Of a stretch of DNA of 64,000 nt, positions 6,716-24,082 are shown in pieces (positions within the stretch are counted from its first letter, which is position 1; every line of letters begins with the position of its first letter). A model generated the notes under the pieces. It was not told the DNA's origin and made no database searches. It was given only the letters and a program-made list of their open reading frames with translations. The DNA is from Nitrospirales bacterium. Lineage in GTDB: Bacteria > Nitrospirota > Nitrospiria > Nitrospirales > UBA8639. Location of the stretch: assembly GCA_965223765.1 (NCBI GenBank), contig OZ245016.1, forward strand, positions 594,654 to 658,653. Direction: 5' to 3'. The position numbers and the translations under genes were made by a program.

Positions 6716-8341
6716 TTATTGGGTAAAGCATGTTATCGCTTTGCATAGAATCTGATCTGATTCTCCATAGTGCTCAATACTTTGCGTGAGAAGAAATTCT
6801 CCAGCTCGCATTACGTGTTCTGATCCGTACGCGCGCGTCAAGTCTTTACTTGCCAAGATATAACAAAGAGTGGCTCCGGCAAAAGCAACCGCACGTGGGG
6901 CCATTTGTGGCCACGAGTCACTGATTCCTCGTTGATAGGTATCAACGATGGTCTGGATGGTCGTATACCAAGAATTGTCTGCAGATGAATTTAAAGCCCA
7001 ATAGACGTAATGCCCAAGAAACATTCCCAGATCCAAAGCTGGGTCGCCCCAACTGGAGCTGCGTTCGAAGTCGATCACACCTATTTCCCCATCCCGGAAC
7101 AATACATTTTTAGGATGAAAATCCAGATGCAGAAAACAAGGTTGCGCGACTTGCTCGCTGGCAAGCTTGAGATTCTTCAGATTGCTAAATGTATCTATTG
7201 AGAACTTTTCTGATGGAAGGGCCACGGTATACAGATCGAGAATCGACTTCCAATGTTTCTGGTCGGCCTCTGGAGTACCCCATAGAACTGGGGCATGGGG
7301 TATCGTATGGCATTTCCTGAGAAATTGGCAGGCCTTGCTAGCGATGACTGGATCAAAAATGCCTCGCTGAAGGTTGTCTTGTAGCGAAGAGCCGTGGGGA
7401 CAGACTTCAGACAACACAACGATCCACGTCTTTTTATCAAAGTGAATCACTGTAGGAATTTCAAAATCCGTATTGAGATGCGTGGCCAACCATTTCAGGA
7501 CTTTCCGTTCGACTGAAAGACGTTCCCGGGGTTTCAGAGTGTGAGCTCCGCTCCACTCTTCTATTCCCAGAGCATCTCCAGCATACTTGATGAAGACAAC
7601 ACGTTCATCTTCGAGTCTGGCGCGAAATACCTGATCTGGTTTGTCTGATGATGAGCAAGATAGTTTTTTTATAGGCCCAAGATTGCTTCGGTTCATCACC
7701 GCATGAATTTTCGCTTGCACGATCGTCTGGAGTTCCAGGATACCTTCCTGGCAGATTGCCCAAATTTCTTCACGCTGCTGGCACGTGAGATGATTGGGAA
7801 GGGCTGAGAAGAATCTGCTCTTTCCAGCATCACCTTCAATGAGTGCGGTCCGTAAATCCGCTGAACGTACCGAATACGCGCCTGTTGGCGCTTGAATGAT
7901 GTTGGCATCAACTCCATATTGCCTCTCCAATTCTTCGAGCTTCCTAAATCGATCGTCACCCCGCTTGAGATCAGTCTCACCAAGACAAAACAATAGCGAA
8001 TCTCCATTCTGACAATGGGCAAAATACTTGAGTGCATGTCCAACAGCGGTGTGCGAGGCAATCTCTATTCGAACTTTCTCAAGATTCCCCAAGAAAAGCA
8101 GCCAAATTCGTCGGGCGATCGTGGCATCAAGAGCTAAAGTTGTTCCCGGGATTAATCGAGCCCGATTAGAAATAATAACCACGATTTCATCGATATCGGA
8201 TCGTGTCAGAAGATAACGCACTGCAGCATAGTGCGCGGCATGGGGGGGGCGAAAAGCGCCAGGATACAACGCGATGACACGTCCAGCTGATTTCTTTGTG
8301 GAGATAAATTCCGAGATCTGATGACTCATCGTGCGATTCAT
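6716..8341 (-). CDS. cytidylyltransferase-like domain fused to an APH/methylthioribose-kinase-like phosphotransferase
   Basis: N-terminal YPGAFRPPHAAH (HxGH-type); C-terminal HLDFHPKN...VIDFE...GDPALDLG. Confidence 0.75.
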   Translation of the reverse strand: MNRTMSHQISEFISTKKSAGRVIALYPGAFRPPHAAHYAAVRYLLTRSDIDEIVVIISNRARLIPGTTLALDATIARRIWLLFLGNLEKVRIEIASHTAVGHALKYFAHCQNGDSLLFCLGETDLKRGDDRFRKLEELERQYGVDANIIQAPTGAYSVRSADLRTALIEGDAGKSRFFSALPNHLTCQQREEIWAICQEGILELQTIVQAKIHAVMNRSNLGPIKKLSCSSSDKPDQVFRARLEDERVVFIKYAGDALGIEEWSGAHTLKPRERLSVERKVLKWLATHLNTDFEIPTVIHFDKKTWIVVLSEVCPHGSSLQDNLQRGIFDPVIASKACQFLRKCHTIPHAPVLWGTPEADQKHWKSILDLYTVALPSEKFSIDTFSNLKNLKLASEQVAQPCFLHLDFHPKNVLFRDGEIGVIDFERSSSWGDPALDLGMFLGHYVYWALNSSADNSWYTTIQTIVDTYQRGISDSWPQMAPRAVAFAGATLCYILASKDLTRAYGSEHVMRAGEFLLTQSIEHYGESDQILCKAITCFTQ

Positions 8342-8373
8342 GGATTGGCAGGAATAGGTGATAGAAGAAAAAG

Positions 8374-9867
8374 CTAGAAAGATAGTTGGATGTCGAAACG
8401 CGCTTCGAATGCGGGGTCATCATCAATGAAAGCTTTTCCTGGCATAAAATACCCTGTTCTGAGGCGGAACCGCATATTTTGAATGGCTCGAACCCCAACG
8501 ATAAGATCGATTTCTTTTCCAAGATCTTTGTTGGCGCCGTTTAGGTCGCCTCTGACATCGATATCTCGTAGCTCATCCGAACGCCAATTTTGTTTGTAGT
8601 AGTGGTAGACGATATCTATCGATGTTCTGGGAATGGGCCGAAAGCCAATGCCGACCGTATAGATGTGCATGTTGCTGAGTTCAGGATCGAATAGCACACC
8701 GTAATAGTCAAAGTTCACGACACCTCCGAACTTCCCTGAATTGTTCTGGAACCCAGTCTGCCGAAAATTTCGGTCATTTCCCTTTGATGAATCATTGTCA
8801 CCAGAGCCATATGCGAATCCCAGAGTGAAATACGGTTGGAAAGCAATCTTTCTAGCGATATACGTCGCCCCAACATCAAAGGCAAAACCTCTGATCGCCT
8901 GACCTTGTTGAGTCCCTCCTACAAATGCAGCATCGATCCAGTATCGAAGGCGGGGCTTAAAGAATTCTCTCAAGGTCCCGGATTCGAATAGATCGAATTT
9001 GAACTTCGGCCGTCCGTAGGAGCGAATGCCAACCCAAATCGGATTATCGTCGTTAGAGGATGTATCTTTCCTCTGCAAGACATAACTACTCAAGAATGAC
9101 TTTTGTTTTTGAGGCCCAATCACATATCCTGTTTCGAACAGGAGGTCAAACTGCCGGCGTTTTCGAAAAATATCATCGAAATAGCGATAATCTTCTTCTC
9201 GATCAAGGACTGGGGTTGAGATGGAAGTTTTGAAATGCCAGGGATCAGGGTCAAAGAAAAAACGAATGCCATCCAATTCTTCATTGAGATACCAGCGTCT
9301 TGGCTCAAAAAACTGTTGCCTTCCAACTCTCAGGGCAGATGGAATGGTAAATGGTAATGGAGCCTGAATGAAGAGCTCGTTTACTTGGGCCTCGACTCTG
9401 TTGACCTTCTCGACATTTTCCTGAAAGGTCAATTCATCTTCAATGCCCAACTCGGAAAAAAAATAAAACCCCTGAGGAAAAGTTAAGATAAAGTTCACAT
9501 CTAATCCGGGAGTGAAACGAAGACGATCTTGTTGATTGTTCTTGTCAAGATTGAGGTTGTCTTGCCAGGTGGTGTCTACATTCAATGCTCCTGTAAATGT
9601 CAGAAGGGTGTTGCCGATTGTCGCTTGAATTTGTGAATCGGGACGGAGTCTCTCGTCATCCCCACGCAGTGCGATGGCGTTGGTTTCTTTTTCGAGTTCT
9701 TTCTTTTGTTGGTCCGGGTCTGTTTCGACAGAAGGTGGAGGAGCCACAGTCGCGGCATGTACCATTTCAATTTTCCACCATGGAACATGATCGGAGCAGG
9801 CAAGGACTAAAACGTACAGAACTCCCAGAAGCCAGATGTTTGTTCGTCGAGACACGATGGACGTCAT
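8374..9867 (-). CDS. alginate export (AlgE-like) outer-membrane porin
   Basis: beta-strand pattern, VGRQQF...WY...DG, GSGD...FRQTGFQNN, DLGKEIDL, terminal Phe. Confidence 0.8.
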   Translation of the reverse strand: MTSIVSRRTNIWLLGVLYVLVLACSDHVPWWKIEMVHAATVAPPPSVETDPDQQKKELEKETNAIALRGDDERLRPDSQIQATIGNTLLTFTGALNVDTTWQDNLNLDKNNQQDRLRFTPGLDVNFILTFPQGFYFFSELGIEDELTFQENVEKVNRVEAQVNELFIQAPLPFTIPSALRVGRQQFFEPRRWYLNEELDGIRFFFDPDPWHFKTSISTPVLDREEDYRYFDDIFRKRRQFDLLFETGYVIGPQKQKSFLSSYVLQRKDTSSNDDNPIWVGIRSYGRPKFKFDLFESGTLREFFKPRLRYWIDAAFVGGTQQGQAIRGFAFDVGATYIARKIAFQPYFTLGFAYGSGDNDSSKGNDRNFRQTGFQNNSGKFGGVVNFDYYGVLFDPELSNMHIYTVGIGFRPIPRTSIDIVYHYYKQNWRSDELRDIDVRGDLNGANKDLGKEIDLIVGVRAIQNMRFRLRTGYFMPGKAFIDDDPAFEARFDIQLSF

Positions 9868-9976: not shown

Positions 9977-11788
9977 TCACGTGACAGGTTCAGAGACCGA
10001 CGGATATTCGAACTCGGTTTGTTGGCGATAGAGCATACTGTAGTACCCATTCTGATTCTTAAGCGCTTCGTGTGTGCCTTGCTCAACGATTGCGCCATCC
10101 CGAAGAACAAGAATTTGATCAAACTGATCCATGCAAAAAAATTGGTGGGCGATAAATAGCGTCGTTTTCCCTTCTTGAACCTGTGCAATGGCTTTTCGGA
10201 TAAGAGTAGCCGATTCAATATCCACAGCCGATGTGGGTTCATCTAAGATGAGAATCGACGGACGTTTAATGAAGGCCCTGGCTAGGCAAATTCGCTGGCG
10301 TTGCCCGCCAGAGAGAGTGTTTCCTTTCTCTCCAACGATCGTGTCGTAGCCGTCCGAGAGCGCCATAATGAAGTCATGAGCATACGCTTGCTGGGCGGCA
10401 GTCTTCATTTCCTGAAGCGTCGCATCTGGTTTTCCATAGGAAATATTCTCGGCAATGCTGGCGCCAAATAGAACGGTATCCTGAAGCACAATGCCAATCT
10501 CGTGTCGTAATGACTCGCGCTGGTAATGCGTGATATCCACGCGATCGATCATGATATGTCCTTCCTGAGCATCATAGAGACGAAGGAGCAAGCTCACGAT
10601 CGTTGACTTCCCGGCTCCCGATGCGCCAACCAGCGCGACGCGTTGACCGGGAAGGATGTGAAACGAAATTTCGTTCAAAACGGTTTGATTCTTTTGGTAA
10701 CCAAAAGAGACCCGATCAAACGTCAGGTCTCCTTTCAGGTTACCAGCGGGTACAGCATGAGGGGCTTCCGTGATTTCGGGCTCGATCTCTAGCAGCTCGG
10801 CGATTCTCGTCGCACTCACCGACACCTTTGCAAACCTGGCGGAAAGCTTTCCTAAATCGCGGATAGGTTTGAAGAAGCTTCTGACATAGGCGACAAAGAT
10901 TAAGAGATCGCCGGGCAACATGCGGCCTTTCAAAACGTACCAGGCCCCAAAGAACACGGTGCAGGCGACTCCAATCGCGCTGATCAATGAGACCACCGTC
11001 GTAACAGCAGCCGAGGTTCTAGCTGTCTGAATGCCGGCTTCCAAATTCTTTGCACTTTCCTCTTCAAGACGGTCTTTTTCGTATTCTTCCCGTCCAAAAG
11101 CCTGTATGAGTGAGATAGAGGACAAGGCTTCGTTGACCCGTGAATGAATCTTTCCTTCCTGCCTGCGTTGGTATCGTACGGACGTCCTGATCTTCAGATT
11201 GAGAAGAAGGAGGATGCATCCGAGAACGGGCAGCGTCAAAAGGATGACGAGACTCAGTTCCCAGCTCAACATAAACATCACAATAGACATGCCAACCAGC
11301 ATGAGGACGTGGGCAATAGCCTTGAGTGCCCAGTCGGTAAACGCTTCTTTTAAGGTCGTCGTGTCATCCGAGAATTTCGTTAGAATCTCTCCAGTCGGCA
11401 CTCGATTGTGAAAAGAAAGAGACAGCCGTTGGAGATGCGCGAAGAGTTCTCTTCGCAACGTATAGACTAACTCGTGTCCGATTTTTGTGGTGGTATAGAT
11501 TTGGAAATAGGACAAGCTCCCACCCAGGATCGCGAAAAGCGCGATAGAGGCGGAGACAACGAAGAGGGGGAGAAGTGTTTCATCTTGTAAGAAGGCAGTC
11601 AAAAACGTCAGGGTCGGCGGCAATGGATTAGCCAAGAGTATGTAGTCAACCACGATTTTCAATGGCCATGGTGCTAGCAATTGTGTCGTGATCACTCCGA
11701 TGAGACACAAAGCTGCCAAACACAGTTTCCCTTTCACATTGAGCAGATGGGTAGAGATGATACCCCTGAAGGTACGACCATTAAGCAT
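9977..11788 (-). CDS. ABC exporter, fused permease/ATPase
   Basis: TM domain, Walker A GASGAGKS, LSGGQRQR signature, ILILDEPTS. Confidence 0.93.
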   Translation of the reverse strand: MLNGRTFRGIISTHLLNVKGKLCLAALCLIGVITTQLLAPWPLKIVVDYILLANPLPPTLTFLTAFLQDETLLPLFVVSASIALFAILGGSLSYFQIYTTTKIGHELVYTLRRELFAHLQRLSLSFHNRVPTGEILTKFSDDTTTLKEAFTDWALKAIAHVLMLVGMSIVMFMLSWELSLVILLTLPVLGCILLLLNLKIRTSVRYQRRQEGKIHSRVNEALSSISLIQAFGREEYEKDRLEEESAKNLEAGIQTARTSAAVTTVVSLISAIGVACTVFFGAWYVLKGRMLPGDLLIFVAYVRSFFKPIRDLGKLSARFAKVSVSATRIAELLEIEPEITEAPHAVPAGNLKGDLTFDRVSFGYQKNQTVLNEISFHILPGQRVALVGASGAGKSTIVSLLLRLYDAQEGHIMIDRVDITHYQRESLRHEIGIVLQDTVLFGASIAENISYGKPDATLQEMKTAAQQAYAHDFIMALSDGYDTIVGEKGNTLSGGQRQRICLARAFIKRPSILILDEPTSAVDIESATLIRKAIAQVQEGKTTLFIAHQFFCMDQFDQILVLRDGAIVEQGTHEALKNQNGYYSMLYRQQTEFEYPSVSEPVT

Positions 11789-13862
11789 TGGAAGCCTTCG
11801 ACTCGGAAAGCGGGACTATCCGTTGTTGGGTTTGCCAGAGTGTTTGAAAGGAATGGAATACGATATTGGGCCACTGCCGAAGTTCGGCAAGGAGCTGGTC
11901 CAAGAACAGGAACGCTTCCGTATCCATGACTTTGTGATGCAGCAGGATACCGATGAGGTCGAGTTCATGCATCTGCTTGAGGAAACACGTCGCGATGTCT
12001 TCCGGTCCTTTGAGCTGTGGGCCACCTTTCCAGGTGCAGAGATCGAGGGTCGTGGAAATTTCTGTAAATGAGTAGCCTGTGACAGGGGGTTTCCCGTTAT
12101 CTTTGGATAGGATATGGAACCCCAGTTCATCAAGGACCTGGAACGTATCGGTTGTACAACGATTCCAGGGTGGTGTGAATACCGGAAAGAATCGTATGGG
12201 AAATATGGATTCAAGGATGGTTTTCCCCTTGGCTATATCGTGCATTTGCTCTTGGAAAGAACGGCTTGGTCCAAACTCACATTTTCGGCCAACGTTCTCG
12301 TGATTGTGATGTGACAAGCCATGTTGGTTCAGACTCACGAGGGCGGAACTGATTCGGTTGCAATCCTTCAGAAACCGAATACCACCCGGAGTGAGTTTTT
12401 CTGGAATGATCTGAAGATTCAATGGAACATCGTACGAGAGTGTGATATCCCACAAATGCCGGAGAGATTCTTCGTCATCATCGATGTCGTCGTCTCGTAA
12501 AAAGACGTGAACGGTTTGACGAGTTTCGGCTAATCCTTCAAGTCCTCTTCGAAGGTGGTCTTGCCATTCGGACCTCGAGTCTGCGTGCCAGTCGAGTGTC
12601 TTCTGAACAAATGGAGCTGCAGCCTTGGACCACTCAATAAGCCCATCAAGTAGCAGTGGAATGTTTTTCGCACCTTGAATGTCAGGAAGAGATCGTGGAA
12701 GGCTTGCCTCTGTATCGAGTGTGTCCCGTATCGTTTTGGCCAGGTAAGCAGGTTGGAGTTTATCCGGGTCGAGGATGGTGACGATGCCCCGTTTCTGGAG
12801 TTTTTTGGCTCGAATGCGTTGTTCTTCGTTCCCTCTTCCCATGAAGGGGAGCACAAGAGCCCGGATGCCCGTTGAAATAATATTCATGCAGGTGTTGTAG
12901 CCAGCCATGCTGATCGAGAGATCGGCGTAGGTGAGATATGCCAGGAATCGGTTGGTATAGCGCTGCAGGACAATATAGGGTTTATTGCGGCAGCGTTGCT
13001 GCAGGTTCCTATAGTCCTCATCAGACATGTAGGGGCCCGCAAACATGATCAGCCGGTGTGGGAAAGACGATGTCAGCAAGTCACTAGCGATGATTATGCA
13101 TTCCATCAGTTCAGAGCCAACTCTTCCCCCACCGATGCTGGCAATAATAATAGGACTTTCTTCAGGACTTGCGGGAATATCCAGTAGTGACTGGGGGTGA
13201 GATGCCGAAGCGGTCTGCGAAACAAACCCGGTGTAGTGAATGTTGCATGTGAGCGCTGGTACCAGCGAAAACGTTTCCTCCAATGTCTGAAAGTCTGGAT
13301 CGGCATGAACAAGTAATAGGTCAAAATAACGATTCATCAGGGCGACAACCCATTCTTCATGTCTGGTCTGGTCTGATTTGCTCACCAGAATATCTCTCAA
13401 GCTGCAGACGACTTTAGTCTGTCCTCCTGACAATCTGACTCTTGCTAAAAGTGGCACAAGCTCACAGGCGAAACGTTTTCGGCCAAACGGAAACAGTTCG
13501 AGGATCAGCAGATCGGGTTGGATGCGCCCGTATGCCTGTAACATGAGTGCTCGGCGAGCTTTGATGATTTCCTCAACCGGTTGTTCGGAGTCTGCACCGG
13601 AAAGACCTTCAAATTCAGCATCGGATTTAAGGGGTGGAAGATTAATGATGTGGACCGGCGGCGGTACCGAGACATCTGATAATAATTCTCCCCCATTCAG
13701 AAAGTAGACGTCATAGTCTGTTAGCGCTCGGACAATCTCCAGGCTTCGAATCATGTGCCCCATTCCCAGAACATGTTGGCAATAAAACATAATTGTTTTC
13801 ATCATATTCCAATCATGCTCTTTTTGACGGTAAGCAGTGAAGCGATTCAGTCGCGATATCAC
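11781..13862 (-). CDS. GT-B glycosyltransferase (GT28-like) fused to a polysaccharide-deacetylase-like domain
   Basis: YCQHVLGMGH, ELFPFGR, SIGGGRVG, SMAGYNT; C-terminal FLRDDD...QHGLSHHNH...FTPPWN. Confidence 0.8.
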   Translation of the reverse strand: MISRLNRFTAYRQKEHDWNMMKTIMFYCQHVLGMGHMIRSLEIVRALTDYDVYFLNGGELLSDVSVPPPVHIINLPPLKSDAEFEGLSGADSEQPVEEIIKARRALMLQAYGRIQPDLLILELFPFGRKRFACELVPLLARVRLSGGQTKVVCSLRDILVSKSDQTRHEEWVVALMNRYFDLLLVHADPDFQTLEETFSLVPALTCNIHYTGFVSQTASASHPQSLLDIPASPEESPIIIASIGGGRVGSELMECIIIASDLLTSSFPHRLIMFAGPYMSDEDYRNLQQRCRNKPYIVLQRYTNRFLAYLTYADLSISMAGYNTCMNIISTGIRALVLPFMGRGNEEQRIRAKKLQKRGIVTILDPDKLQPAYLAKTIRDTLDTEASLPRSLPDIQGAKNIPLLLDGLIEWSKAAAPFVQKTLDWHADSRSEWQDHLRRGLEGLAETRQTVHVFLRDDDIDDDEESLRHLWDITLSYDVPLNLQIIPEKLTPGGIRFLKDCNRISSALVSLNQHGLSHHNHENVGRKCEFGPSRSFQEQMHDIAKGKTILESIFPIRFFPVFTPPWNRCTTDTFQVLDELGFHILSKDNGKPPVTGYSFTEISTTLDLCTWKGGPQLKGPEDIATCFLKQMHELDLIGILLHHKVMDTEAFLFLDQLLAELRQWPNIVFHSFQTLWQTQQRIVPLSESKASNA

Positions 13863-15419: not shown

Positions 15420-16654
15420 AGCTGCCTCTCACTCTTGCTCCGAAAAAGATATTCCTGCGCGTGTAACACGTATTGTTTCGCGCACAATGCCCGGTTAGGG
15501 TGAATTTTGGATGTGGCGCGCAGCGCCTTTGCCAGCCACTTATGTGCACAATAGATATCTATGAGTGCCGGGTTGAGAGCAATCGCCATGGATTCATATC
15601 CATGAATAAAGGCTTTTTGGACTTCGACGAATCGACCCCGTCCTTTGTCTTTGAATGCAAGCTCAGTCAAAAATGAGGCAACATCATATTCACGGTCGCC
15701 ACATGCCATCCGATCAAAATCCACCAACCCCAATCCCGAGTCGCTGACTAACCACTGCTCTGGATGAAGGTCGGTGTGTAACGGTACAAGCTCTTGCCCA
15801 TTCCATCTCGCGTGAGCCAATTGTAAGTGGTTGAGTAAAGTCTCAACATCAGCCTGCAGATGAGGGTGATGCTGTGTAAGCATCGCACCATGCCTTCTGG
15901 CCTGCCTCAGCACAGTTTTGTTGTCGAATATGATGGTTGAGGATAGGCGACATTGATGAAGCGTCGCGATGGCTTCTCCTATCTTATAAGCCAGAGGAAG
16001 GCCTTTGGCTTCAAGGAGCTGGTGAATGGTAACGGGTGTTCCTGGTACCGTCTTTTGCCACAGTGTTCGCGTTGATCCATCCCATCCAACAGGTTCAGGC
16101 ACAGAAAACCCGAGTGCGCCTCGGTTTGCGACATCCCACAGAGCCATGCCATCCGTGTGAATTCTTTGTCCCACATCAGAATCAAACACCTTCGCAAATT
16201 CCGCGAAGCCGTGTGGGCCTGTCGAGAACTGGATCGTACATCGATGGTGAGGATGATAGTGAACGACGTGTGCCTGGTCACTTGTCATGAGAACATGGCG
16301 CAACATAGGGAGAGCCGGATCTTCAGGAAATCGTGTGAGTCGAAGCCACCCCATCCCGTTCATAAAGATCGTGGTTTCTTCAGCAGATGAAGGTGCCTGA
16401 AGATGTTGTGATAACTCAATCAGGCAAATGTGTTGCAGTTTATCTTGTGTCTGAAAAACAAGCGTGGCGTAGACCTCTTGATAGGGAGAGAATCTTCCTG
16501 ACATACGTGTCCAGATTCGATCTGGTCGCCACCACCCCAAGCGGCTTCCTCTCTCATTAATGGACTCAATAAAGAATTGATCGTCTGAAAGACGGCCGAT
16601 TTGATCGAGTGAACCGGCGTCGAGTAGATCAGGTATCTTTAGGACAGTCGTCAT
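15416..16654 (-). CDS. aminoglycoside-phosphotransferase-family kinase
   Basis: HYHPHHRCT, LHTDLHPEQ, VDFDR, GDREYDVASF. Confidence 0.8.
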   Translation of the reverse strand: MTTVLKIPDLLDAGSLDQIGRLSDDQFFIESINERGSRLGWWRPDRIWTRMSGRFSPYQEVYATLVFQTQDKLQHICLIELSQHLQAPSSAEETTIFMNGMGWLRLTRFPEDPALPMLRHVLMTSDQAHVVHYHPHHRCTIQFSTGPHGFAEFAKVFDSDVGQRIHTDGMALWDVANRGALGFSVPEPVGWDGSTRTLWQKTVPGTPVTIHQLLEAKGLPLAYKIGEAIATLHQCRLSSTIIFDNKTVLRQARRHGAMLTQHHPHLQADVETLLNHLQLAHARWNGQELVPLHTDLHPEQWLVSDSGLGLVDFDRMACGDREYDVASFLTELAFKDKGRGRFVEVQKAFIHGYESMAIALNPALIDIYCAHKWLAKALRATSKIHPNRALCAKQYVLHAQEYLFRSKSERQL

Positions 16655-18146: not shown

Positions 18147-20153
18147 CTATCCAACCACATAGCGCCGGAGAAAAGTGTCCGCTCCATTCGTTCGAATCAA
18201 ACAGGTGGCTCCATCGTGCGCAAACCGGTCAAAGGCGTATTCTCCAGGGCATGAGGAATGCCTCACAAAATAATAGTCGTGAAAGATCTGGTCATCTCGC
18301 GAAATCTTGATGCACAGAGCCGAAGCCTGATTTGGCGTGCAGGAACGGTCATCGTGAAAAACAGGCAACTTCTGAACTGATATCCCGGGAGCCTCTGTTT
18401 TATAAGGCATGATAACCGTGTGGTAGCACATACTGGTTTGTCGGCTTGAGAGTTTCACGATAGGGGCTTGATGTTTTGTCCCATACATGCGAGAGATGTA
18501 GCTGTCTTGGATAGTAGGCTGAATGTTCGCGTCCAATGGTTGAGCGAGTATCAGATGGGGCGCATGAATAATGAGCGAATCATTCGAAGCGACACATGAG
18601 GTTTGCCCCCAGGCTTCATCCGAGAGATGAAAGAGCAGATCATAGTCATGAGGGTCTTCAGCGATGATAAGATCAGATAGAATCCAATAGTCTGGCAACA
18701 CAAAAAAGATCTTGCGTTCATGAATGACCCGATATTCATGGCTCTTTGCGATTCCATGGAGGAAGTCAAATCCTGGTTGCGTGGTGAATTTTTGTAATCG
18801 AAAATCTGGCTGGGGCCCTTTGATTTTAAATCGCGTTTTATCAAAGACATAGCGTGTTTGATTTTTTCCGTCGATCAGCACGGTGTTGTGCGCGGCAGTC
18901 TCCCGAAATCGAACGCGCCAATTGATCTGGCCTGATTCGTCATAGGTATAACGTCCTGGGTCAATGATTAAGGATTTTCCATAAGCGGCCATTTCAAAAC
19001 TCAGCAGATCAAAATGCCCATGATTTCCGGCGCCTAGGGGGCCACAATCGAATATCAAATAGCGCTCACCTTCGTAGGGTTCCGACCCATCCCCCCAGCC
19101 ACTGCGGAGAATATAGTAGCCACTATGACTGAATTCCTTGGATCTCTCCTGAGGCGGAGTTCCACGCACACCTTGTGAGGCTACATACCGAAACTCCTGA
19201 TTGCCGTAGAGTTGAAACCCCTGTTCCAGAAGATCCAAGAAATTTCGGCTATCTCCATCACCGAGTGAAGGAATGGTTCCGTCGGGTTTATGGACATAAA
19301 GGGAAAACTCCAAAGCTTTCTGAATCTTCTCATCGACAATGGCAGGAAAAGTGATTTGATTGAGTACGGCCAAACGTCGAACCCACAAAAAATTCTTGAG
19401 GACTAAGTGATGGTAGTCCGTGGATAGTTCGCAATGAACGCCGTCAGGCAACAGATCTGATTGGATGTTCTTGACGAGTTCCGTTTTCGCAAGCTCCAGC
19501 CAGTTAGATGCTTCACGAAGCTCTGGGAAGACGACTCCCGCAAGAAAGATAGAACAGAGCTCCAAGGTCCGGTGGTTGCGTGCAGGCGTGAGATGTGTAC
19601 ACAAATAACTGACTTGTTGGGACAGAGACGAGAGAAACTTCAGGTAAAAATCCGAGTCTATGCGAGCCGTGTGTTCCTGAGTCACGAAAAAGTAATGCGC
19701 AAAAATCCAGTTCTGAATTCGACGTCCCGCAACATCGCTAGGCAAAAAATTGAGTGGAACCAGATTTATCCAGGACTCTGTGAGTTCAACCCATTTATTG
19801 AGACATTTTTGATCTTGGGTGTCGCCAAAGGCCATTCCCAGGCCCACCGCGTAATAAAACTTGTGAAGTAAGATAAGCCATTCCACATCCTGACTTGGAT
19901 TTTGAAGCCACGGAATGGAACGAAGGTTATGATAGACTTCCCCGTTGAACTCGAATGTGTCATCAAGAATGTTTTCGATTTTTTCCCGTCGGGTTTCGAC
20001 AGGATCGATCACGGGGAAATAGGTGACAGATTCTCGGGAACGGAAATGTTCCAAAATGTCTTGAGGGGTCCATTGAGCATACGGTTCCTGAAAAATCGTC
20101 AATGCTGACTGATGCCATTGGCGTGAGGATGTGCGTGAACGTGTCAGTGGCAT
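18147..20153 (-). CDS. heparinase II/III-family polysaccharide lyase-like protein
   Basis: DGVHCELSTDYH, SGYYILRSGW, FDCGPLG..HGHFDLLSF, IDPGRYTY, AAHNTV. Confidence 0.87.
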   Translation of the reverse strand: MPLTRSRTSSRQWHQSALTIFQEPYAQWTPQDILEHFRSRESVTYFPVIDPVETRREKIENILDDTFEFNGEVYHNLRSIPWLQNPSQDVEWLILLHKFYYAVGLGMAFGDTQDQKCLNKWVELTESWINLVPLNFLPSDVAGRRIQNWIFAHYFFVTQEHTARIDSDFYLKFLSSLSQQVSYLCTHLTPARNHRTLELCSIFLAGVVFPELREASNWLELAKTELVKNIQSDLLPDGVHCELSTDYHHLVLKNFLWVRRLAVLNQITFPAIVDEKIQKALEFSLYVHKPDGTIPSLGDGDSRNFLDLLEQGFQLYGNQEFRYVASQGVRGTPPQERSKEFSHSGYYILRSGWGDGSEPYEGERYLIFDCGPLGAGNHGHFDLLSFEMAAYGKSLIIDPGRYTYDESGQINWRVRFRETAAHNTVLIDGKNQTRYVFDKTRFKIKGPQPDFRLQKFTTQPGFDFLHGIAKSHEYRVIHERKIFFVLPDYWILSDLIIAEDPHDYDLLFHLSDEAWGQTSCVASNDSLIIHAPHLILAQPLDANIQPTIQDSYISRMYGTKHQAPIVKLSSRQTSMCYHTVIMPYKTEAPGISVQKLPVFHDDRSCTPNQASALCIKISRDDQIFHDYYFVRHSSCPGEYAFDRFAHDGATCLIRTNGADTFLRRYVVG

Positions 20154-20163
20154 CGAGTTACCC

Positions 20164-21540
20164 TTAATCTACCTTCGGGGCGTATTCGATGGGGGTGCCG
20201 GGTTGAGTGAGTGGAGAAGGAGCGCTGTCAGGTCGGCCGACGCCTTTTTGCCCCGCATGAGACTGGAAGAGACGAGCCAACCCTGAGATATTGGATCGGG
20301 AATCGAACATGTGAAGGACTTTTTTTCTTCCCGCTTTGGCTAATGTTGTTCGAAGTTCTGAGTCGGTTAAAAGTTCTTCTAATGCATCAGCTAAGGCTCG
20401 CGCGTTTTTCTGAGGGACTAACAGGCCGTCTTGTCGGTGTGTGATAAGTTCTGGAATACCTGATACATCAGTCGAGACGATGGGAATTCCACAGGCCATG
20501 GCTTCTGCCAAGACATTCGGAATTCCATCTCGATCCCCATTATCTAAAACATGACAGGCTAACGTGAAAATCGAGGCCTGTTGATAGATTTTGCCTAGTT
20601 GATCTTGCGTGACCCCCGGTTTCAGGGTGAGCGTGTTATCCAGATAAAGCCTGTGTCTTAAGCTTTTGATATGAGATGTCTCTTCATCGAACTCTCCTAA
20701 AATCACACTCTGAAAACGATGTCCCCGTTGTTGGAGGATTCCCAAAGCTTCAACGAGATAGGAAAACCCCTTTTTCTTCACGTGACGCCCAACTGATAGA
20801 ATCACGGGAACGTCGGAGGGGGGGACGGAGGCTGGCAGGAACCGCCCAGTATTGACCCCGTGATACACCCGATGCACTTTGCCTGCATCCTGAGGGAATA
20901 ATCTTTGAAGATGCTCATGGTTAAATCCTGTGCAGGTGGCGACGAAGGTGGTTCGTTGCATCTTGATCGATAACAGGTTCCCAGGGTTTAACTTTGGCAA
21001 ATAAATATCTTTTGCGTGGGCAGTAAAGCTAAAAGGAATACCTGTAAGGGAACTGGCAAACATCGCCATCGTCGTGGCGCCATGACAAAAATGTGCATGG
21101 AGGTGACGAATCGAAGGTGACTGGATTACCTTATTGGCGATAAACCCAGCTCGAAAAAATTCTTTGTACATAGCCTTTTTGGGTTCAAGACCCCAGGTAT
21201 GACGAAGAGAGAAACTAAGCCAGATGGCTTCCATCAACACTTTCACATACTGTAGAGGGCGCTGGGAGAAGAGATGAAGATGAGCCAGGTAATAACGCGG
21301 AACGTTGGCCTTCAGCCACGGCCAAAACGATGAATCAATAGCAGTCGGTTCCTCAGGTAAATACGTGACGGGGCTTTGGATATTGTTGGCCACGAGTGAT
21401 GTTGTGGTCTCCCTGGGAAAGGCTGAAAAAATTTTGAAACGAAATCCCAAGCGTTCAAGTTCATGAATTTCATTCGTGATAAAGGCTTCAGAGTTTCGAG
21501 GAAACCCTTTGAGGATGTAGGCAATAGTAGAGTGGCTCAT
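20164..21540 (-). CDS. GT4 glycosyltransferase
   Basis: FPRNSEAFI, HLHAHF, SFTAHAKDIY, DRDGIPNVLAEAMA. Confidence 0.9.
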   Translation of the reverse strand: MSHSTIAYILKGFPRNSEAFITNEIHELERLGFRFKIFSAFPRETTTSLVANNIQSPVTYLPEEPTAIDSSFWPWLKANVPRYYLAHLHLFSQRPLQYVKVLMEAIWLSFSLRHTWGLEPKKAMYKEFFRAGFIANKVIQSPSIRHLHAHFCHGATTMAMFASSLTGIPFSFTAHAKDIYLPKLNPGNLLSIKMQRTTFVATCTGFNHEHLQRLFPQDAGKVHRVYHGVNTGRFLPASVPPSDVPVILSVGRHVKKKGFSYLVEALGILQQRGHRFQSVILGEFDEETSHIKSLRHRLYLDNTLTLKPGVTQDQLGKIYQQASIFTLACHVLDNGDRDGIPNVLAEAMACGIPIVSTDVSGIPELITHRQDGLLVPQKNARALADALEELLTDSELRTTLAKAGRKKVLHMFDSRSNISGLARLFQSHAGQKGVGRPDSAPSPLTQPGTPIEYAPKVD

Positions 21541-22736
21541 GGTAGTACGACTTGGTAATGCTCAGATGTTGATTGTTTTTCTTGAGCATCAGATGTGATT
21601 TGCTTGAAAAGATTGTGAATCACACCAATGTTCTTGGATACACAAAAATCCTCTTCCACGGTTCTTCTTGCCGCGGTGCCTAATCGTTTTCGATGCTTAG
21701 GGTTTTGGAGTAGCATTTTTAACACTTCAGCCAATGTTTCCGGTTCACCGGGCAGAGTCAAAATCCCATCGTGGCCATCATGGATGAGCTCAGGAATGCT
21801 GGCGATAGCCGTAGAAACGACTGGGAGACCCATCGCCATGGCTTCGACAAGGACATTGGGGATGCCATCACGGTCACCATCTTCGGCAATTTGACAAGGC
21901 AAGACGAAGACGGAGGTCTTCTGATACCAGTCGATAATGCCATTCTGCGGCATTTTCCCCAGGAGGCGAACACAATCACTGATGTCAAATTGGTGAATCA
22001 TCTGTTTCAGGCTCTGTTCGAGCGGGCCATAGCCCACCAGCACACATTGGAAGTGGCACCCAGCTCTTTTTAGTGAGGCACAGGCTTGAATGAGAACAGG
22101 GAACCCTTTTTTGGGACGGAACCGTCCGATGCTCAGAATTAGCGGGCGCGTTTCATCTCTACCAAAAATTTCTTGGGAGTTAGTATGGAACACATTCAGA
22201 TCCACCCCGTGGTAGACCCGATAAATTGGTATATCGGAATGGACGCATTCTTCCAGATAATTTTTGTTGTACTCGGTACAGGTCAGAACGAACTGTGCTC
22301 TAGTCACCTTACGCGATAAATCTTCCTTAGATGAAAGGAAGAGATCTTTGGCATGGGTGGTAAAGCTATAAGAGATTCCGGTGAGGGTATGTACCTGTAG
22401 GGCTACGTCGGTGGGTTCGGAGACATAATGAGCATGAAGATGTGTGATGCCATATTCATGAACCTTTTCAGTGACCCATTCGGTCCACAAGAATTGTTGG
22501 ATGACGTTCCCCTTTCCTCCATTGAATACAACAGGTCCATACAATACTGGAGCCTTGAGTTGACGAATATGTGGGTGTGTCTCTGTGTCAGAGGGGGGGC
22601 GTAAAGAGAGGACGACAAGATTCAGCCCGAGACGTTCTAGTTCCAGTATTTCTTGAAGAATAAATGTCTCCGACAGTTTCGGAAAAATCTTGACGAGATA
22701 CCCAATCGTTGGTACCGCGTTTGATGTAGATGACAT
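21537..22736 (-). CDS. GT4 glycosyltransferase
   Basis: FPKLSETFI, HLHAHY, SFTTHAKD, DRDGIPNVLVEAMA. Confidence 0.9.
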   Translation of the reverse strand: MSSTSNAVPTIGYLVKIFPKLSETFILQEILELERLGLNLVVLSLRPPSDTETHPHIRQLKAPVLYGPVVFNGGKGNVIQQFLWTEWVTEKVHEYGITHLHAHYVSEPTDVALQVHTLTGISYSFTTHAKDLFLSSKEDLSRKVTRAQFVLTCTEYNKNYLEECVHSDIPIYRVYHGVDLNVFHTNSQEIFGRDETRPLILSIGRFRPKKGFPVLIQACASLKRAGCHFQCVLVGYGPLEQSLKQMIHQFDISDCVRLLGKMPQNGIIDWYQKTSVFVLPCQIAEDGDRDGIPNVLVEAMAMGLPVVSTAIASIPELIHDGHDGILTLPGEPETLAEVLKMLLQNPKHRKRLGTAARRTVEEDFCVSKNIGVIHNLFKQITSDAQEKQSTSEHYQVVLP

Positions 22737-22759
22737 ATGAATCTGACTGCCTCATGCGA

Positions 22760-24082
22760 TCATGCGGGTTGTAGCAAGGCATGATGGAAGGGTTCTATAG
22801 GGTAATGTCTCTTTTGACTATCGGAACGAGCATGACCCCAGCTTCCATTCATTAATAAATTCAGGATAGCCATAGTAAGGGTGGGTAAGGCATTGAGGTT
22901 TACAGCAGGTCCAGGGGTTAGGTTTCTTAGATCGTGGGGTTGGCATAAAAGACCTTCTAATTTTTCACAGAAAGAATCTGGGTTGAGTTTGTCTGGATGA
23001 ATCGCTTGGAACCACCCTAATTTCGCCATGCGCTGGGCACGTATCCATTGTTCTTCAACGGGGCGCGTTCTTGGAATTACTAATGCTGGTTTGCGTAAGG
23101 AGAGTAATTCACAAATGGTTCCATACCCACCCATGGATACGGCTACATCTGCGGCATCTAGGTAACTCATCACATCATCGGAAAAAGTCAGTGTCCTGAG
23201 GGAAGGCCATTGAGAGGCTTGAAGCTCTAATTCAAGACGAGTGGCTTCGGGCATTTCTGGACCGAAAATCAGAGTGCTGTACACTCGCTTGTGTTGAGAT
23301 ATGCGTGGCATGCTTGCCAGGTATTGTTGAAAAAGCTGCACACCATCTTCCCCCCCTCCGGCAGTGACGAGCACCATTTGATCATCTGCCGTCAGGCCTA
23401 ATTTCTTTCTCATATGTTCTCGGGTATGTTGTCCTGACTCTCGACGGAGATATCCACAATATTGGGTTTTGAGTTGAAGCGCTGGCGGGAACTGATATTC
23501 TGAACAGGCTTTGAACACTTCTGGAGAGCCTAGTACAAAAATACGATCGTAATGGGCTTCGAGCGCTTGAAAGTATTTCTGCTTTTTCCAGATGGCTCGT
23601 GTTACCTGTGGACTATCCAGAATGTCACGCAACAAAAGTGTGACGATGGTTTCAGGATGATAGGTTTTTAAATGGGCTAACGCTGGCTCCAATTCATTCT
23701 CGACCCCATAGGGTTTTTTGTCGACGATGACCATGTCAGGTTGAAAATTTACTAATGCGGCGAGAATGAGCTCAGTTCGGAGTTTGACGATGTCCCGCGT
23801 ATGTTCCTTCAGATATTTTGGGCCATAGCCATTGCATTTTGTTCGGGAAAGACAGGGCAATTTAATATAGTCAACACCCTCTGGGATGCGAAAACTATGC
23901 ACCATTGGAGAACCAGAAATGATCAAAATGGACAGGTCGGGAATCGACTTCATGAGAAATTGGCAAATAGAGAGGGTTCGACGAATGTTTCCCAACCCAA
24001 AGGTATCGTGGGAATAAAAGACTACCCGCTTAGTGTTCGCATTGACCATGTCTTTGAATTTTTTGAGTGAATGGAGTTTCAT
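22760..24082 (-). CDS. GT-B glycosyltransferase (GT28-like), first gene of the glycan operon
   Basis: YSHDTFGLGNIRR, YIKLP, LRDILD, VTAGGGEDG, SMGGYGT, EQWIRA. Confidence 0.85.
   Translation of the reverse strand: MKLHSLKKFKDMVNANTKRVVFYSHDTFGLGNIRRTLSICQFLMKSIPDLSILIISGSPMVHSFRIPEGVDYIKLPCLSRTKCNGYGPKYLKEHTRDIVKLRTELILAALVNFQPDMVIVDKKPYGVENELEPALAHLKTYHPETIVTLLLRDILDSPQVTRAIWKKQKYFQALEAHYDRIFVLGSPEVFKACSEYQFPPALQLKTQYCGYLRRESGQHTREHMRKKLGLTADDQMVLVTAGGGEDGVQLFQQYLASMPRISQHKRVYSTLIFGPEMPEATRLELELQASQWPSLRTLTFSDDVMSYLDAADVAVSMGGYGTICELLSLRKPALVIPRTRPVEEQWIRAQRMAKLGWFQAIHPDKLNPDSFCEKLEGLLCQPHDLRNLTPGPAVNLNALPTLTMAILNLLMNGSWGHARSDSQKRHYPIEPFHHALLQPA

What the first reader, a model, noticed from the sequence alone, without database searches (positions are those of the whole stretch)
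6716..24082. Candidate undescribed phospho-glycan synthesis/export pathway
Seen: one co-oriented, tightly packed run of GT28-like, 2x GT4, heparinase-like lyase, 3x APH kinase, GT28-deacetylase fusion, ABC exporter, AlgE-like porin and nucleotidyltransferase-kinase. Established: AlgE-type porins export anionic polymers, and lyases and deacetylases accompany synthase-type EPS systems. Kinase plus nucleotidyltransferase makes NDP-activated donors. No Wzx/Wzy/Wzc, Wzm/Wzt, GT2 synthase or initiating phosphoglycosyl transferase is recognisable here. Inference: a non-canonical route to a phosphorylated or anionic oligosaccharide or glycoconjugate that leaves via ABC plus porin.
Basis: partly seen in the sequence, partly recalled or inferred. 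Interest (0 to 1): 0.85.

Follow-up and report, generated by a model that had tools for sequence, protein, structure and literature searches.

The report
Conserved uncharacterised glycan synthesis-export operon
A nitrite-oxidiser-type Nitrospirota genome carries a tightly packed 12-gene operon (sugar transferases, a heparinase-like enzyme, four small-molecule kinases, a deacetylase, an ABC exporter and an alginate-type outer-membrane pore). The same gene set recurs across several phyla, matches no described polysaccharide pathway, and most likely makes and secretes an unknown acidic sugar compound.

Summary
Window 6716-24659 (minus strand) is one co-oriented operon: receiver protein, MurG-like GT, two GT4, a cytoplasmic PL12/heparinase-III-like enzyme with its Asn/Tyr/His triad intact, three APH-fold kinases, a MurG-like GT fused to a CE4-like (DUF2334) deacetylase, an MsbA/NdvA-type ABC half-transporter, an AlgE homologue, and a PPAT/NadD-like adenylyltransferase fused to a fourth APH kinase.

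No Wzx/Wzy, ABC-2, GT2 synthase or phosphoglycosyl transferase was found here. None turned up among the related-cluster accessory genes I sampled either.

The genes are strongly co-conserved. The fusion protein has 348 relatives in about 186,000 species genomes. In 47 loci with full flanks the ABC exporter is present in 46, GT4 in 42, APH in 39 and Hep in 33. These loci come from Nitrospirota (including comammox Nitrospira), Acidobacteriota, Chloroflexota, Desulfobacterota and others. An outer-membrane barrel follows the ABC only in diderms.

An ECF-sigma promoter motif sits directly upstream (6 copies genome-wide, 4 at this locus).

No characterised pathway or paper was found. The product chemistry is inferred, not shown: uronate-containing, de-N-acetylated, possibly phosphorylated.

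The parts
24108..24136 (-). ECF-sigma-type promoter motif GTTTAC-N16-CGTCTAA, 20 nt upstream of the first GT start codon
   Evidence: Sequence. The pattern occurs 4x in the window against 0.04 expected. It occurs 6x in the whole 3.79 Mb genome, 4 of them at this locus. The same motif lies 88 nt before the GT28a homologue in L015 and L054.
24108..24659 (-). Receiver-only response regulator; first gene of the co-oriented run. The likely true start is the ATG at 24563.
   Evidence: Pfam Response_reg 9.9e-26. Homologue (f26) directly upstream of GT28a in 4 Nitrospira loci.
22760..24082 (-). GT28a: soluble MurG-like GT-B glycosyltransferase; core gene
   Evidence: Glyco_tran_28_C 1.7e-12. The family profile hits MurG structures at 8e-11. 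No TM segment. 31-55% identical homologues at the head of related clusters.
21537..22736 (-). GT4a: retaining GT-B glycosyltransferase; accessory copy
   Evidence: Glycos_transf_1 6.6e-38; EpsE-like at 179 bits, below cut-off.
20164..21540 (-). GT4b: retaining GT-B glycosyltransferase; core gene
   Evidence: Glycos_transf_1 9.3e-35. 45-74% identical across phyla.
18147..20153 (-). Hep: cytoplasmic PL12 / heparinase-III-like enzyme
   Evidence: Hepar_II_III_N 2.7e-42 and Hepar_II_III_C 3.4e-35. The family profile matches heparinase III 4MMI at 7e-57. N193, Y247 and H378/H380 align with the NHR, YH and H motif residues of heparinase III and are invariant in 23 homologues. No signal peptide.
16651..18087 (-). 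K1: APH-fold small-molecule kinase with a ~130-aa N-terminal cap
   Evidence: APH 4.5e-15. HGDLHFKN and IDLD motifs. AF2 pLDDT 90. Foldseek returns only APH-type small-molecule kinases, TM 0.4-0.5. The profile's best hit is methylthioribose kinase. Directly follows Hep in 35 of 38 cases.
15416..16654 (-). K2: APH-fold kinase with an HxDxxxxQ variant motif, found only in the closest relatives. It sits where sister clusters carry a histidine phosphatase.
   Evidence: APH 5.7e-15; motif; maps.
13813..15189 (-). K3: APH-fold kinase with a family-wide HGDFHxxQ variant; always just upstream of the GT28-deacetylase gene
   Evidence: APH 1.3e-10; alignment A2; motif; maps.
11781..13862 (-). GT28D: MurG-like GT fused to a CE4-like (DUF2334) deacetylase; core gene. 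The two parts are separate genes in Acidobacteriota and Alphaproteobacteria.
   Evidence: Glyco_tran_28_C 1.3e-11 plus DUF2334 7.8e-5. The motifs FFRDDD, QHGWxHxNHE, TPPWNR and LHH are invariant. Split genes seen.
9977..11788 (-). Type-I ABC exporter half-transporter (MsbA/NdvA/HlyB-like, no peptidase domain); core gene
   Evidence: ABC_membrane 1.4e-47 and ABC_tran 5.9e-36. Below every NCBIfam equivalog cut-off. Present in 46 of 47 full-flank loci.
8374..9867 (-). AlgE-like outer-membrane beta-barrel with a signal peptide
   Evidence: Alginate_exp 6e-35. The profile matches AlgE structures at 7e-21. N-terminal hydrophobic segment. Follows the ABC in 20 of 22 Nitrospirota loci and in none of 4 Chloroflexota loci.
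6716..8341 (-). NK4: PPAT/NadD-like adenylyltransferase domain (residues 1-200) fused to an APH-fold kinase; accessory gene
   Evidence: APH 2.8e-15. Weak NadD hits. Invariant PGAFRPPHxAH and TxxxxR..LR motifs. AF2 pLDDT 88, and all top 50 Foldseek hits are PPAT or NadD. Found in 14 of 80 loci.
32014..33338 (+). ECF sigma factor and its TM anti-sigma with a CBM48 domain; probable regulator of the operon
   Evidence: RpoE-like 4e-43. CBM_48 6e-12. An autoregulatory copy of the motif lies at 31924-31953. The same sigma/anti-sigma block is adjacent to the cluster in 7 Nitrospira loci.

Best explanation
The region is an ECF-sigma-controlled operon of a widespread, uncharacterised cluster family.

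Shown:
- A conserved core of three soluble GT-B glycosyltransferases (MurG-like GT28a, GT4b, and a second MurG-like GT) with a CE4-like deacetylase and a type-I ABC exporter.
- An add-on module of a cytoplasmic PL12-like enzyme followed by APH-fold kinases.
- An outer-membrane barrel after the ABC in diderms only.

Inferred mechanism:
1. The glycosyltransferases assemble, in the cytoplasm and without an undecaprenyl-phosphate primer, a short hetero-oligosaccharide or glycoside. It contains a 4-linked hexuronic acid and an N-acetylhexosamine. The acceptor is probably a small phosphorylated metabolite.
2. The CE4 domain de-N-acetylates the hexosamine.
3. The PL12-like enzyme abstracts the C5 proton of the uronate, acting either by beta-elimination (trimming or release) or as an epimerase.
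4. K1, K2 and K3 phosphorylate the acceptor or the glycan.
5. NK4 converts a sugar or alcohol into its phosphate and then into an ADP-activated donor, in an HldE-like two-step reaction.
6. The anionic product is pumped across the inner membrane by the NdvA/MsbA-like ABC.
7. It leaves through the AlgE-like pore.

Expression is driven by an ECF sigma whose anti-sigma carries a periplasmic glycan-binding CBM48.
For: - Domain content and cytoplasmic location of all enzymes.
- Catalytic signatures are kept: Hep N/Y/H triad, CE4 motifs, kinase HxD...N/Q plus DxD, and the nucleotidyltransferase HxxH and TxxxxR motifs and fold.
- Co-conservation and order across phyla.
- Hep and APH co-occur: both present in 32 loci, neither in 7, one alone in 8. 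Hep is followed directly by APH or a second Hep in 35 of 38 cases.
- The outer-membrane barrel after the ABC is AlgE-like in Nitrospirota, TBDR-like in Acidobacteriota and absent in Chloroflexota.
- No PGT, flippase, polymerase or ligase was found in the window operon or among the related-cluster accessory genes tested. Those found were methyltransferase, pyruvyl-transferase-like, extra GT4, histidine phosphatase, SDR epimerase and radical SAM.
- Uronate theme: a UDP-sugar dehydrogenase and a PF14099 polysaccharide lyase sit beside the homologous three-GT core in rhizobia. Two NDP-sugar dehydrogenases are encoded elsewhere in this genome.
- A histidine phosphatase occurs in kinase-free versions, which points to a phosphorylated acceptor.
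- ECF motif statistics.
Against: - No product has been seen, so every chemical step is inferred from family membership.
- MurG-like GTs and MsbA/PglK-like ABCs classically act on lipid-linked substrates, so a lipid acceptor is not excluded.
- The kinases resemble no sugar kinase more than antibiotic, steroid or peptide kinases.
- A cytoplasmic lyase in a biosynthetic route is unusual.
- Alginate_exp barrels also occur in unrelated contexts.
- The phosphatase in sister clusters suggests the phosphate may not stay on the product.
Confidence: 0.5

Rival explanations
1. Lipid-linked glycan or glycolipid route. The MurG-like GTs extend an undecaprenyl-PP-sugar (primed by a WecA-type enzyme encoded elsewhere) or a diacylglycerol or other membrane lipid. 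The MsbA/PglK-like ABC flips the finished glycolipid, which then decorates LPS, a protein or the membrane. On this reading the porin is only a neighbour.
For: - The nearest structural relatives of GT28a are MurG and, more weakly, MGDG synthase.
- The ABC scores best against MsbA models and also hits PglK.
- R. etli annotators called the GT28a homologue 'membrane-anchored'.
Against: - None of the GTs has a TM segment.
- No PGT, ligase, oligosaccharyltransferase or polymerase occurs in the window operon or among the related-cluster genes tested.
- An outer-membrane barrel directly follows the ABC in 20 of 22 Nitrospirota loci, and a different barrel follows it in 5 of 13 Acidobacteriota loci, which is unnecessary for a lipid.
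- SBP_bac_5 solute-binding proteins or importers accompany the core in Acidobacteriota and Alphaproteobacteria.
Confidence: 0.2
2. Small secreted glycoside: a pseudo-oligosaccharide natural product, signal, or compatible-solute-type glycoside. Phosphorylation is transient, serving to make the acceptor or to keep the product inactive until export as in streptomycin, rather than being a feature of an anionic glycan.
For: - A histidine phosphatase lies between K1 and K3 in many sister clusters, and next to GT4 in kinase-free versions.
- The GT4 + phosphatase + deacetylase logic resembles sucrose-P, glucosylglycerate and mycothiol routes (named from established knowledge).
- APH kinases and paired type-I ABC exporters are typical of aminoglycoside clusters.
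- Cognate SBP_bac_5 importers suggest re-uptake of a small molecule.
- Accessory methyltransferase and radical SAM genes occur in related clusters.
Against: - No cyclitol synthase, aminotransferase or other scaffold enzyme is conserved.
- A PL12-like enzyme with an intact uronate-lyase triad and an AlgE-type pore fit an acidic oligo- or polysaccharide better.
- This window's own cluster has four kinases and no phosphatase.
Confidence: 0.2
3. Catabolic or salvage locus. The porin and transporter bring in uronate-containing oligosaccharides, the cytoplasmic lyase degrades them, the kinases and adenylyltransferase recycle the released sugars, and the 'GTs' act as phosphorylases.
For: - Cytoplasmic exolytic lyases such as oligo-alginate lyase 3A0O are weak relatives of Hep.
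- APH-fold anomeric kinases (NahK, AmgK, MtnK) work in salvage (for the hits; function from established knowledge).
- TBDR and SBP neighbours occur in Acidobacteriota.
Against: - Three to four GT-B transferases form the most conserved core.
- The ABC has the exporter fold with no cognate SBP in Nitrospirota.
- No KduI, KduD, KdgK or KdgA-type genes for unsaturated uronates appear in the window operon or among the related-cluster genes tested.
- These are chemolithoautotroph hosts.
Confidence: 0.05

Closest known systems
Cyclic beta-1,2-glucan system (NdvB/Cgs synthase plus NdvA/ChvA ABC exporter) of Rhizobiaceae and Brucella
   Same: A lipid-carrier-independent, cytoplasmically made glycan is exported by a type-I (MsbA-like) ABC half-transporter. 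The ABC here scores 375 bits on the glucan-exporter model. In that system the products become anionic through later substitution.
   Different: There is no GT84/NdvB-type synthase. Here there are several single-domain GT-B enzymes, a lyase-like enzyme, kinases, a deacetylase and a dedicated outer-membrane pore.
Alginate secretion (Alg8/44/K/E with AlgG, AlgL, AlgX)
   Same: The outer-membrane barrel is a true AlgE homologue. The system contains a uronate-directed lyase- or epimerase-type enzyme.
   Different: There is no Alg8-type GT2 synthase, Alg44, AlgK or AlgX. The lyase-like enzyme is PL12-like and cytoplasmic, not PL5 and periplasmic. An ABC exporter replaces the synthase channel.
Heparosan / heparan-sulfate logic (K5 KfiA-D; animal EXT, NDST, C5-epimerase, O-sulfotransferases)
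   Same: The set combines inverting and retaining GTs, an N-deacetylase, an enzyme of the family that recognises GlcNAc-alpha-1,4-GlcA (heparinase III), and several enzymes that add anionic groups.
   Different: All enzyme families differ (GT28/GT4 versus GT2/GT45/GT47/GT64). The modifiers are kinases rather than sulfotransferases. There is no KpsMT. The resemblance is conceptual and untested.
HldE (heptose kinase / ADP-heptose synthase) and AmgK-MurU
   Same: NK4 joins a kinase to a PPAT/NadD/CTP_transf_like-fold nucleotidyltransferase, the same two-step logic that yields an ADP- or NDP-sugar.
   Different: The kinase half is APH-fold rather than ribokinase-fold, and the domain order is reversed. 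MurU has a different nucleotidyltransferase fold. The substrate is unknown.
Homologous three-GT loci of Alphaproteobacteria (R. etli CIAT652 pA redA/redB, S. meliloti 1021 pSymB 837-841 kb, Ruegeria sp. TM1040 megaplasmid)
   Same: They share GT28a-GT4-GT28 in the same order at 31-36% identity. R. etli has a type-I ABC exporter. Ruegeria has a deacetylase and a histidine phosphatase. The rhizobial loci have a UDP-sugar dehydrogenase and a polysaccharide lyase beside the core.
   Different: They have no APH kinases, no PL12 enzyme and no AlgE-like pore, and they add an Opp-like SBP_bac_5 importer. Their function could not be traced in the searchable literature.

Membership tests
Wzx/Wzy-dependent polysaccharide pathway | Initiating phosphoglycosyl transferase, Wzx flippase, Wzy polymerase, Wzc/Wza | tested here: not met
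   Pfam and NCBIfam scans of all 12 operon proteins show none. None appeared among the accessory genes of related clusters that were sampled.
ABC-transporter-dependent (Wzm/Wzt, KpsMT) pathway | ABC-2-type permease with a separate ATPase, plus PCP/OPX proteins | tested here: not met
   The only transporter is a fused ABC_membrane+ABC_tran type-I exporter. No Wza or KpsD/E-like protein is present.
Synthase-dependent alginate-type system | AlgE-type outer-membrane porin | tested here: met
   Alginate_exp 6e-35. The family profile matches AlgE structures at 7e-21 over about 285 profile positions.
Synthase-dependent alginate-type system | Processive GT2 synthase with co-polymerase and a TPR lipoprotein (Alg8/Alg44/AlgK) | tested here: not met
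   No GT2, PilZ or TPR protein occurs in the operon.
PL12 heparinase III family | Hepar_II_III N- and C-terminal domains with the catalytic Asn/Tyr/His | tested here: met
   Domains at 2.7e-42 and 3.4e-35. Match to 4MMI at 7e-57, with N193, Y247 and H378/H380 aligned to its NHR, YH and H motif residues and invariant in the family. Their assignment as the catalytic Asn/Tyr/His is recalled from the literature.
PL12 heparinase III family | Secreted or periplasmic degradative enzyme acting on heparan sulfate | tested here: not met
   There is no signal peptide or TM segment. The gene is embedded in a biosynthetic operon. Activity is not testable here.
CE4 metal-dependent de-N-acetylases | Motifs MT1 (DD), MT2 (HxxxH), MT3 (RxPxx) and MT5 (LxH) | tested here: met
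   FFRDDD, QHGWxHxNHE, TPPWNR and LHH are invariant or nearly so in 15 sequences. The Pfam hit is only DUF2334, below cut-off.
APH/choline-kinase-like small-molecule kinases | Brenner motif HxDxxxxN plus the DxD (DFG-equivalent) motif and an N-lobe Lys | tested here: met
   K1 and NK4 are canonical. K2 and K3 have Gln in place of Asn. Invariant Lys K203 (K1) and K196 (K3). The fold is confirmed for K1.
LPS-core kinase / LPS core clusters (WaaP-type) | Association with GT9 heptosyltransferases or the Kdo transferase; restriction to LPS-bearing bacteria | tested here: not met
   No GT9 or GT30 is present. The cluster also occurs in Chloroflexota without an outer-membrane barrel.
HldE-like bifunctional kinase/adenylyltransferase | Nucleotidyltransferase domain with the HxGH-type motif and second signature | tested here: met
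   PGAFRPPHxAH and TxxxxRxTxLR are invariant. All top 50 structural neighbours are PPAT or NadD.
HldE-like bifunctional kinase/adenylyltransferase | Ribokinase-fold kinase domain acting on heptose phosphate | tested here: not met
   The kinase half is APH-fold.
Anti-phage defence systems (PADLOC) | Match to any defence-system protein model | tested here: not met
   0 hits for 10 proteins. The Pfam hits to GT4-conflict and TCAD9 are below cut-off.

The most novel reading that the evidence does not exclude
This may be a fifth, lipid-carrier-independent way for bacteria to make and secrete an acidic glycan. Soluble GT-B enzymes would build a glycosaminoglycan-like (hexuronate / de-N-acetylated hexosamine) oligosaccharide in the cytoplasm. 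Its charge pattern would be written by a set of APH-fold kinases, with phosphate in place of the sulfate of heparan sulfate, and edited by a PL12-like C5-acting enzyme. A type-I ABC exporter coupled to an AlgE-like pore would then expel it, under control of a glycan-sensing ECF sigma/anti-sigma pair. The system is present in Nitrospira (including comammox), Acidobacteriota and Chloroflexota.
Probability: 0.2. Interest if true: 0.85.

Novelty: new variant of a known kind. Interest (0 to 1): 0.62.

Why it matters
Nitrospira (including complete ammonia oxidisers), Blastocatellia and Anaerolineae are abundant in soils, sand filters, wastewater biofilms and the ocean. Their matrix and surface glycans are almost unknown.

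This cluster is conserved and horizontally mobile. It combines enzyme families never described together: MurG-like GTs without a lipid primer, a cytoplasmic heparinase-III-like enzyme, multiple APH kinases, and an ABC exporter paired with an AlgE pore. If it makes a secreted phospho- or uronate-glycan, that would add a new assembly and export logic to bacterial glycobiology. It would also give functions to DUF2334 and to a large uncharacterised APH clade, and explain an ECF sigma regulon with a CBM48 anti-sigma.

Distant homologues in genetically tractable S. meliloti, R. etli and Ruegeria make the question directly testable.

Tried and rejected
- **Conserved precursor peptide (RiPP or glycopeptide reading).** The only sizeable gap (15189-15416) holds a 74-aa ORF that is absent from the closest relatives. 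The ABC has no C39 peptidase domain. Rejected.
- **Defence system.** PADLOC gave no hits.
- **LPS-core reading.** No GT9 or GT30 is present, and the cluster occurs in Chloroflexota.
- **Specific kinase assignment by structure.** The K1 model is confident, but Foldseek gives only generic APH neighbours such as TvaE, Rv3168, steroid kinase, PsiK, NahK and MtnK. Maltokinase is not favoured. No substrate call was possible.
- **Literature.** Ten searches found no description of the cluster (DUF2334; heparinase plus Nitrospira; heparinase plus APH plus GT plus ABC; redA/redB; Clr regulon). These were (rejected for syntax). The Clr-regulated pSymB polysaccharide cluster of PMC5498481 is a different locus. 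Bittinger & Handelsman 2000 (PMC94469) could not be read.
- **Promoter and terminator scan.** It gave nothing above shuffles.
- **Exact-protein context look-up for the window protein.** It is not on record.

Full report
**Observation**

ORF listing shows an unbroken minus-strand run from 24659 down to 6716. Most neighbours overlap or are up to 60 nt apart. The exceptions are one 110-nt gap and one 227-nt gap.

Pfam and NCBIfam assign, in transcription order:

| Coordinates | Assignment |
|---|---|
| 24108-24659 | receiver-only response regulator |
| 22760-24082 | MurG-like GT (Glyco_tran_28_C), "GT28a" |
| 21537-22736 and 20164-21540 | two GT4 enzymes |
| 18147-20153 | heparinase II/III N+C protein, "Hep" |
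| 16651-18087, 15416-16654, 13813-15189 | three APH-fold kinases (K1, K2, K3) |
| 11781-13862 | second MurG-like GT fused to DUF2334, "GT28D" |
| 9977-11788 | fused ABC_membrane/ABC_tran exporter |
| 8374-9867 | Alginate_exp barrel |
| 6716-8341 | 541-aa protein with a C-terminal APH domain, "NK4" |

No protein matches Wzx, Wzy, Wzc, ABC-2, GT2 synthase or phosphoglycosyl-transferase families. A hydropathy scan finds TM segments only in the ABC protein and a signal-like segment only in the barrel. Every enzyme, including the heparinase-like one, is cytoplasmic.

**Are the parts functional?**

- **Hep.** The Hep family is very conserved (54% mean column identity over 23 sequences from five phyla). 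Its profile matches heparinase III structures at E = 7e-57. The alignment puts N193, Y247 and H378/H380 on the NHR, YH and H motif residues of heparinase III, all invariant. I recall these as the catalytic Asn/Tyr/His of that enzyme. The chemistry of uronate C5-proton abstraction is therefore probably retained.
- **DUF2334 domain.** It keeps the CE4 motif set FFRDDD, QHGWxHxNHE, TPPWNR and LHH, which supports a metal-dependent deacetylase.
- **Kinases.** K1 and NK4 have canonical HxDxxxxN and DxD kinase motifs. K2 and K3 carry a family-wide Gln in place of Asn.
- **K1 structure.** A confident AlphaFold model of K1 (pLDDT 90) resembles only generic APH-type small-molecule kinases. Its profile's best sequence hits are methylthioribose kinase, the ACAD11 kinase domain, amicoumacin kinase and N-acetylhexosamine 1-kinase. 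No substrate can be read from this.
- **NK4 N-terminal domain.** The first 200 residues have invariant PGAFRPPHxAH and TxxxxR..LR motifs. They fold (pLDDT 88) into a structure whose top 50 PDB neighbours are all phosphopantetheine or nicotinate-mononucleotide adenylyltransferases. The "nucleotidyltransferase-kinase" call is thus verified. The logic parallels HldE: phosphorylate, then adenylylate.
- **Barrel.** It is a genuine AlgE homologue (7e-21 to AlgE structures).
- **ABC.** It sits below every NCBIfam equivalog cut-off. It scores similarly on the MsbA, glucan-exporter, HepA and HlyB models.

**Co-conservation**

A scan of about 186,000 species genomes with the GT-deacetylase fusion found 348 relatives. 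Eighty loci were fetched. tblastn with all window proteins and an all-against-all clustering of locus ORFs show the same order repeatedly. That order is GT28a, GT4(s), Hep, K1, (His phosphatase), K3, GT28 + deacetylase, ABC.

Among 47 loci with full flanks:
- ABC is present in 46, GT4 in 42, APH in 39 and Hep in 33.
- Hep and APH co-occur: both in 32, neither in 7, one alone in 8.
- Hep is directly followed by a kinase or a second Hep in 35 of 38 cases.

The minimal form is GT28a-GT4-GT28-deacetylase-ABC. It is common in Blastocatellia, where the deacetylase is a separate gene.

The hosts are Nitrospirota (marine lineages, Manganitrophaceae, many freshwater and comammox Nitrospira MAGs), Acidobacteriota, Chloroflexota, Desulfobacterota, a Phycisphaeraceae, a Trueperaceae and others. 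A tree of the GT domain groups sequences broadly by phylum. However, it splits Nitrospirota into at least two clades separated by Chloroflexota and Desulfobacterota sequences. This indicates old residence plus lateral transfer.

Within the window's own genus, only 4 of 25 genomes carry the cluster. It is therefore accessory.

**Export**

An outer-membrane barrel immediately follows the ABC gene in 20 of 22 Nitrospirota loci, where it is AlgE-like. A CarboxypepD_reg/TonB-receptor-like barrel is present in 5 of 13 Acidobacteriota loci and directly follows the ABC gene in the locus examined. No barrel does so in 4 Chloroflexota loci. This pattern is what a soluble product crossing two membranes predicts. 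It is hard to reconcile with a purely lipid-anchored product.

**Accessory genes**

Accessory genes seen inside related clusters are:
- a branch-1 histidine phosphatase (15 loci, plus a second family in Desulfobacterota);
- extra GT4-like genes;
- a methyltransferase;
- a pyruvyl-transferase-like protein;
- an SDR epimerase;
- a radical-SAM enzyme.

No primer transferase, flippase, polymerase or ligase turned up among the genes tested.

**Distant relatives in cultured bacteria**

A tblastn against plasmids found the same three-GT core (31-36% identity, same order) in three cultured groups:
- Rhizobium: R. etli CIAT652 pA, where the first two genes are annotated redA and redB.
- Sinorhizobium: S. 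meliloti 1021 pSymB 837-841 kb.
- Roseobacters: the Ruegeria sp. TM1040 megaplasmid.

In these the core sits beside an Opp-like SBP_bac_5 ABC importer. In rhizobia it also sits beside a UDP-sugar dehydrogenase, a PF14099 polysaccharide lyase, an adenylate cyclase and a Crp-type regulator. R. etli adds a type-I ABC exporter. Ruegeria adds a histidine phosphatase, a deacetylase and a methyltransferase, but no kinase.

Two inferences follow:
1. A uronic acid is a recurrent ingredient. This matches the PL12-like enzyme here, and this genome has two NDP-sugar dehydrogenases elsewhere.
2. A phosphorylated intermediate exists even where no kinase is encoded. The acceptor is therefore probably a phosphorylated small metabolite, as in the sucrose-P, glucosyl-3-phosphoglycerate or GlcNAc-inositol-P routes. 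The kinases of the Nitrospirota, Chloroflexota and Acidobacteriota versions may make that acceptor, or may decorate the glycan.

I could not find any paper on redA/redB or on the pSymB locus.

**Regulation**

The sequence GTTTAC-N16-CGTCTAA lies 20 nt before the GT28a start codon.
- The pattern occurs four times in the window against 0.04 expected.
- It occurs only six times in the 3.79-Mb genome.
- Four of those six are at this locus: before the operon, before an OmpR-type regulator, before a small exported protein, and before the ECF sigma gene 32014-32604.
- That sigma's anti-sigma carries a CBM48 domain.
- The sigma/anti-sigma block also neighbours the cluster in seven freshwater Nitrospira loci.
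- A similar motif precedes GT28a in two of them.

This confirms and extends an earlier first-reader note.

**Interpretation**

The evidence supports a real, conserved, non-canonical glycan or glycoside synthesis-and-export system. My preferred model (about 50%) runs as follows:
1. Cytoplasmic, primer-lipid-independent assembly of a short acidic oligosaccharide that contains a 4-linked hexuronate and a de-N-acetylated hexosamine.
2. Tailoring by the PL12-like enzyme and the kinases.
3. An ADP-activated donor supplied by NK4.
4. Export through the NdvA/MsbA-like ABC and the AlgE-like pore.
5. ECF control of expression.

Rivals are a lipid-linked glycan flipped by the ABC (about 20%), a small glycoside with only transient phosphorylation (about 20%), and a catabolic or salvage locus (about 5%). 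The word "phospho" remains the weakest part.

**Novelty and limits**

No characterised system combines these families. The nearest analogies are the cyclic-glucan NdvA export step, the AlgE pore of alginate, the HldE two-step activation and, conceptually, heparosan or heparan modification.

Nothing chemical was observed. The library of papers is incomplete, so an unindexed description cannot be ruled out.

Noticed in passing
window 15196-15418 (minus): A 74-aa ORF exactly fills the only large intergenic gap, between K2 and K3, and its ATG overlaps the K2 stop. It has no homologue in the closest related clusters, so it is probably not a gene.
   Followed up: yes
window 24108-24136, 25733-25761, 31755-31783, 31924-31953; genome C1:546870 and C1:1375014: The ECF-type motif RTTTAC-N16/17-CGTCTAA occurs only 6 times in the 3.79 Mb genome, 4 of them at this locus. 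One other site precedes a 379-aa secreted repeat protein. The last lies inside a T2SS/T4P ATPase-like gene and is probably chance.
   Followed up: partly
window 13813-16654 (K2, K3): K2 and the whole K3 family replace the Mg-binding Asn of the APH Brenner motif (HxDxxxxN) with Gln. K1 and NK4 keep Asn.
   Followed up: partly
L091 (Ruegeria sp. TM1040), L092 (R. etli CIAT652 pA), L093/L094 (S. meliloti pSymB 837-841 kb): A homologous GT28a-GT4-GT28 core occurs in cultured Alphaproteobacteria, always next to an Opp-like SBP_bac_5 ABC importer. In rhizobia it also sits next to a UDP-sugar dehydrogenase, a PF14099 polysaccharide lyase, a cyclase and a Crp-type regulator. The R. etli genes are annotated redA/redB, and I could not trace the source of those names.
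   Followed up: partly
L044, L059, L064, L073, L075: MAG contigs labelled Heliomicrobium/Heliobacteriaceae carry the Acidobacteriota-type cluster (SBP5 ... TBDR barrel) and nest within Acidobacteriota in the GT tree. This indicates mislabelled bins or recent transfer.
   Followed up: no
window 24108-24659: The receiver gene's longest ORF (183 aa) starts 32 codons upstream of a better start, MNILLLDDD at 24563. The Pfam receiver domain begins at residue 35.
   Followed up: no
L065/L089 and other Acidobacteriota loci: The GT28 and DUF2334 parts are separate genes with overlapping stop and start codons in Acidobacteriota, Desulfobacterota and Alphaproteobacteria. They are fused in Nitrospirota and Chloroflexota, a clean gene fusion or fission event.
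   Followed up: partly
L011-L016, L018, L019, L021, L023, L025-L028, L030, L031, L039, L040, L051, L056, L084, L085: Many Nitrospirota versions insert two or three further genes: f10 (weak polysaccharide-deacetylase-like), f11 or f13 (truncated GT4-like), and f7 (386 aa, no Pfam match, weak GWxTD-domain hit). These are absent from this window. Their function is unknown.
   Followed up: partly
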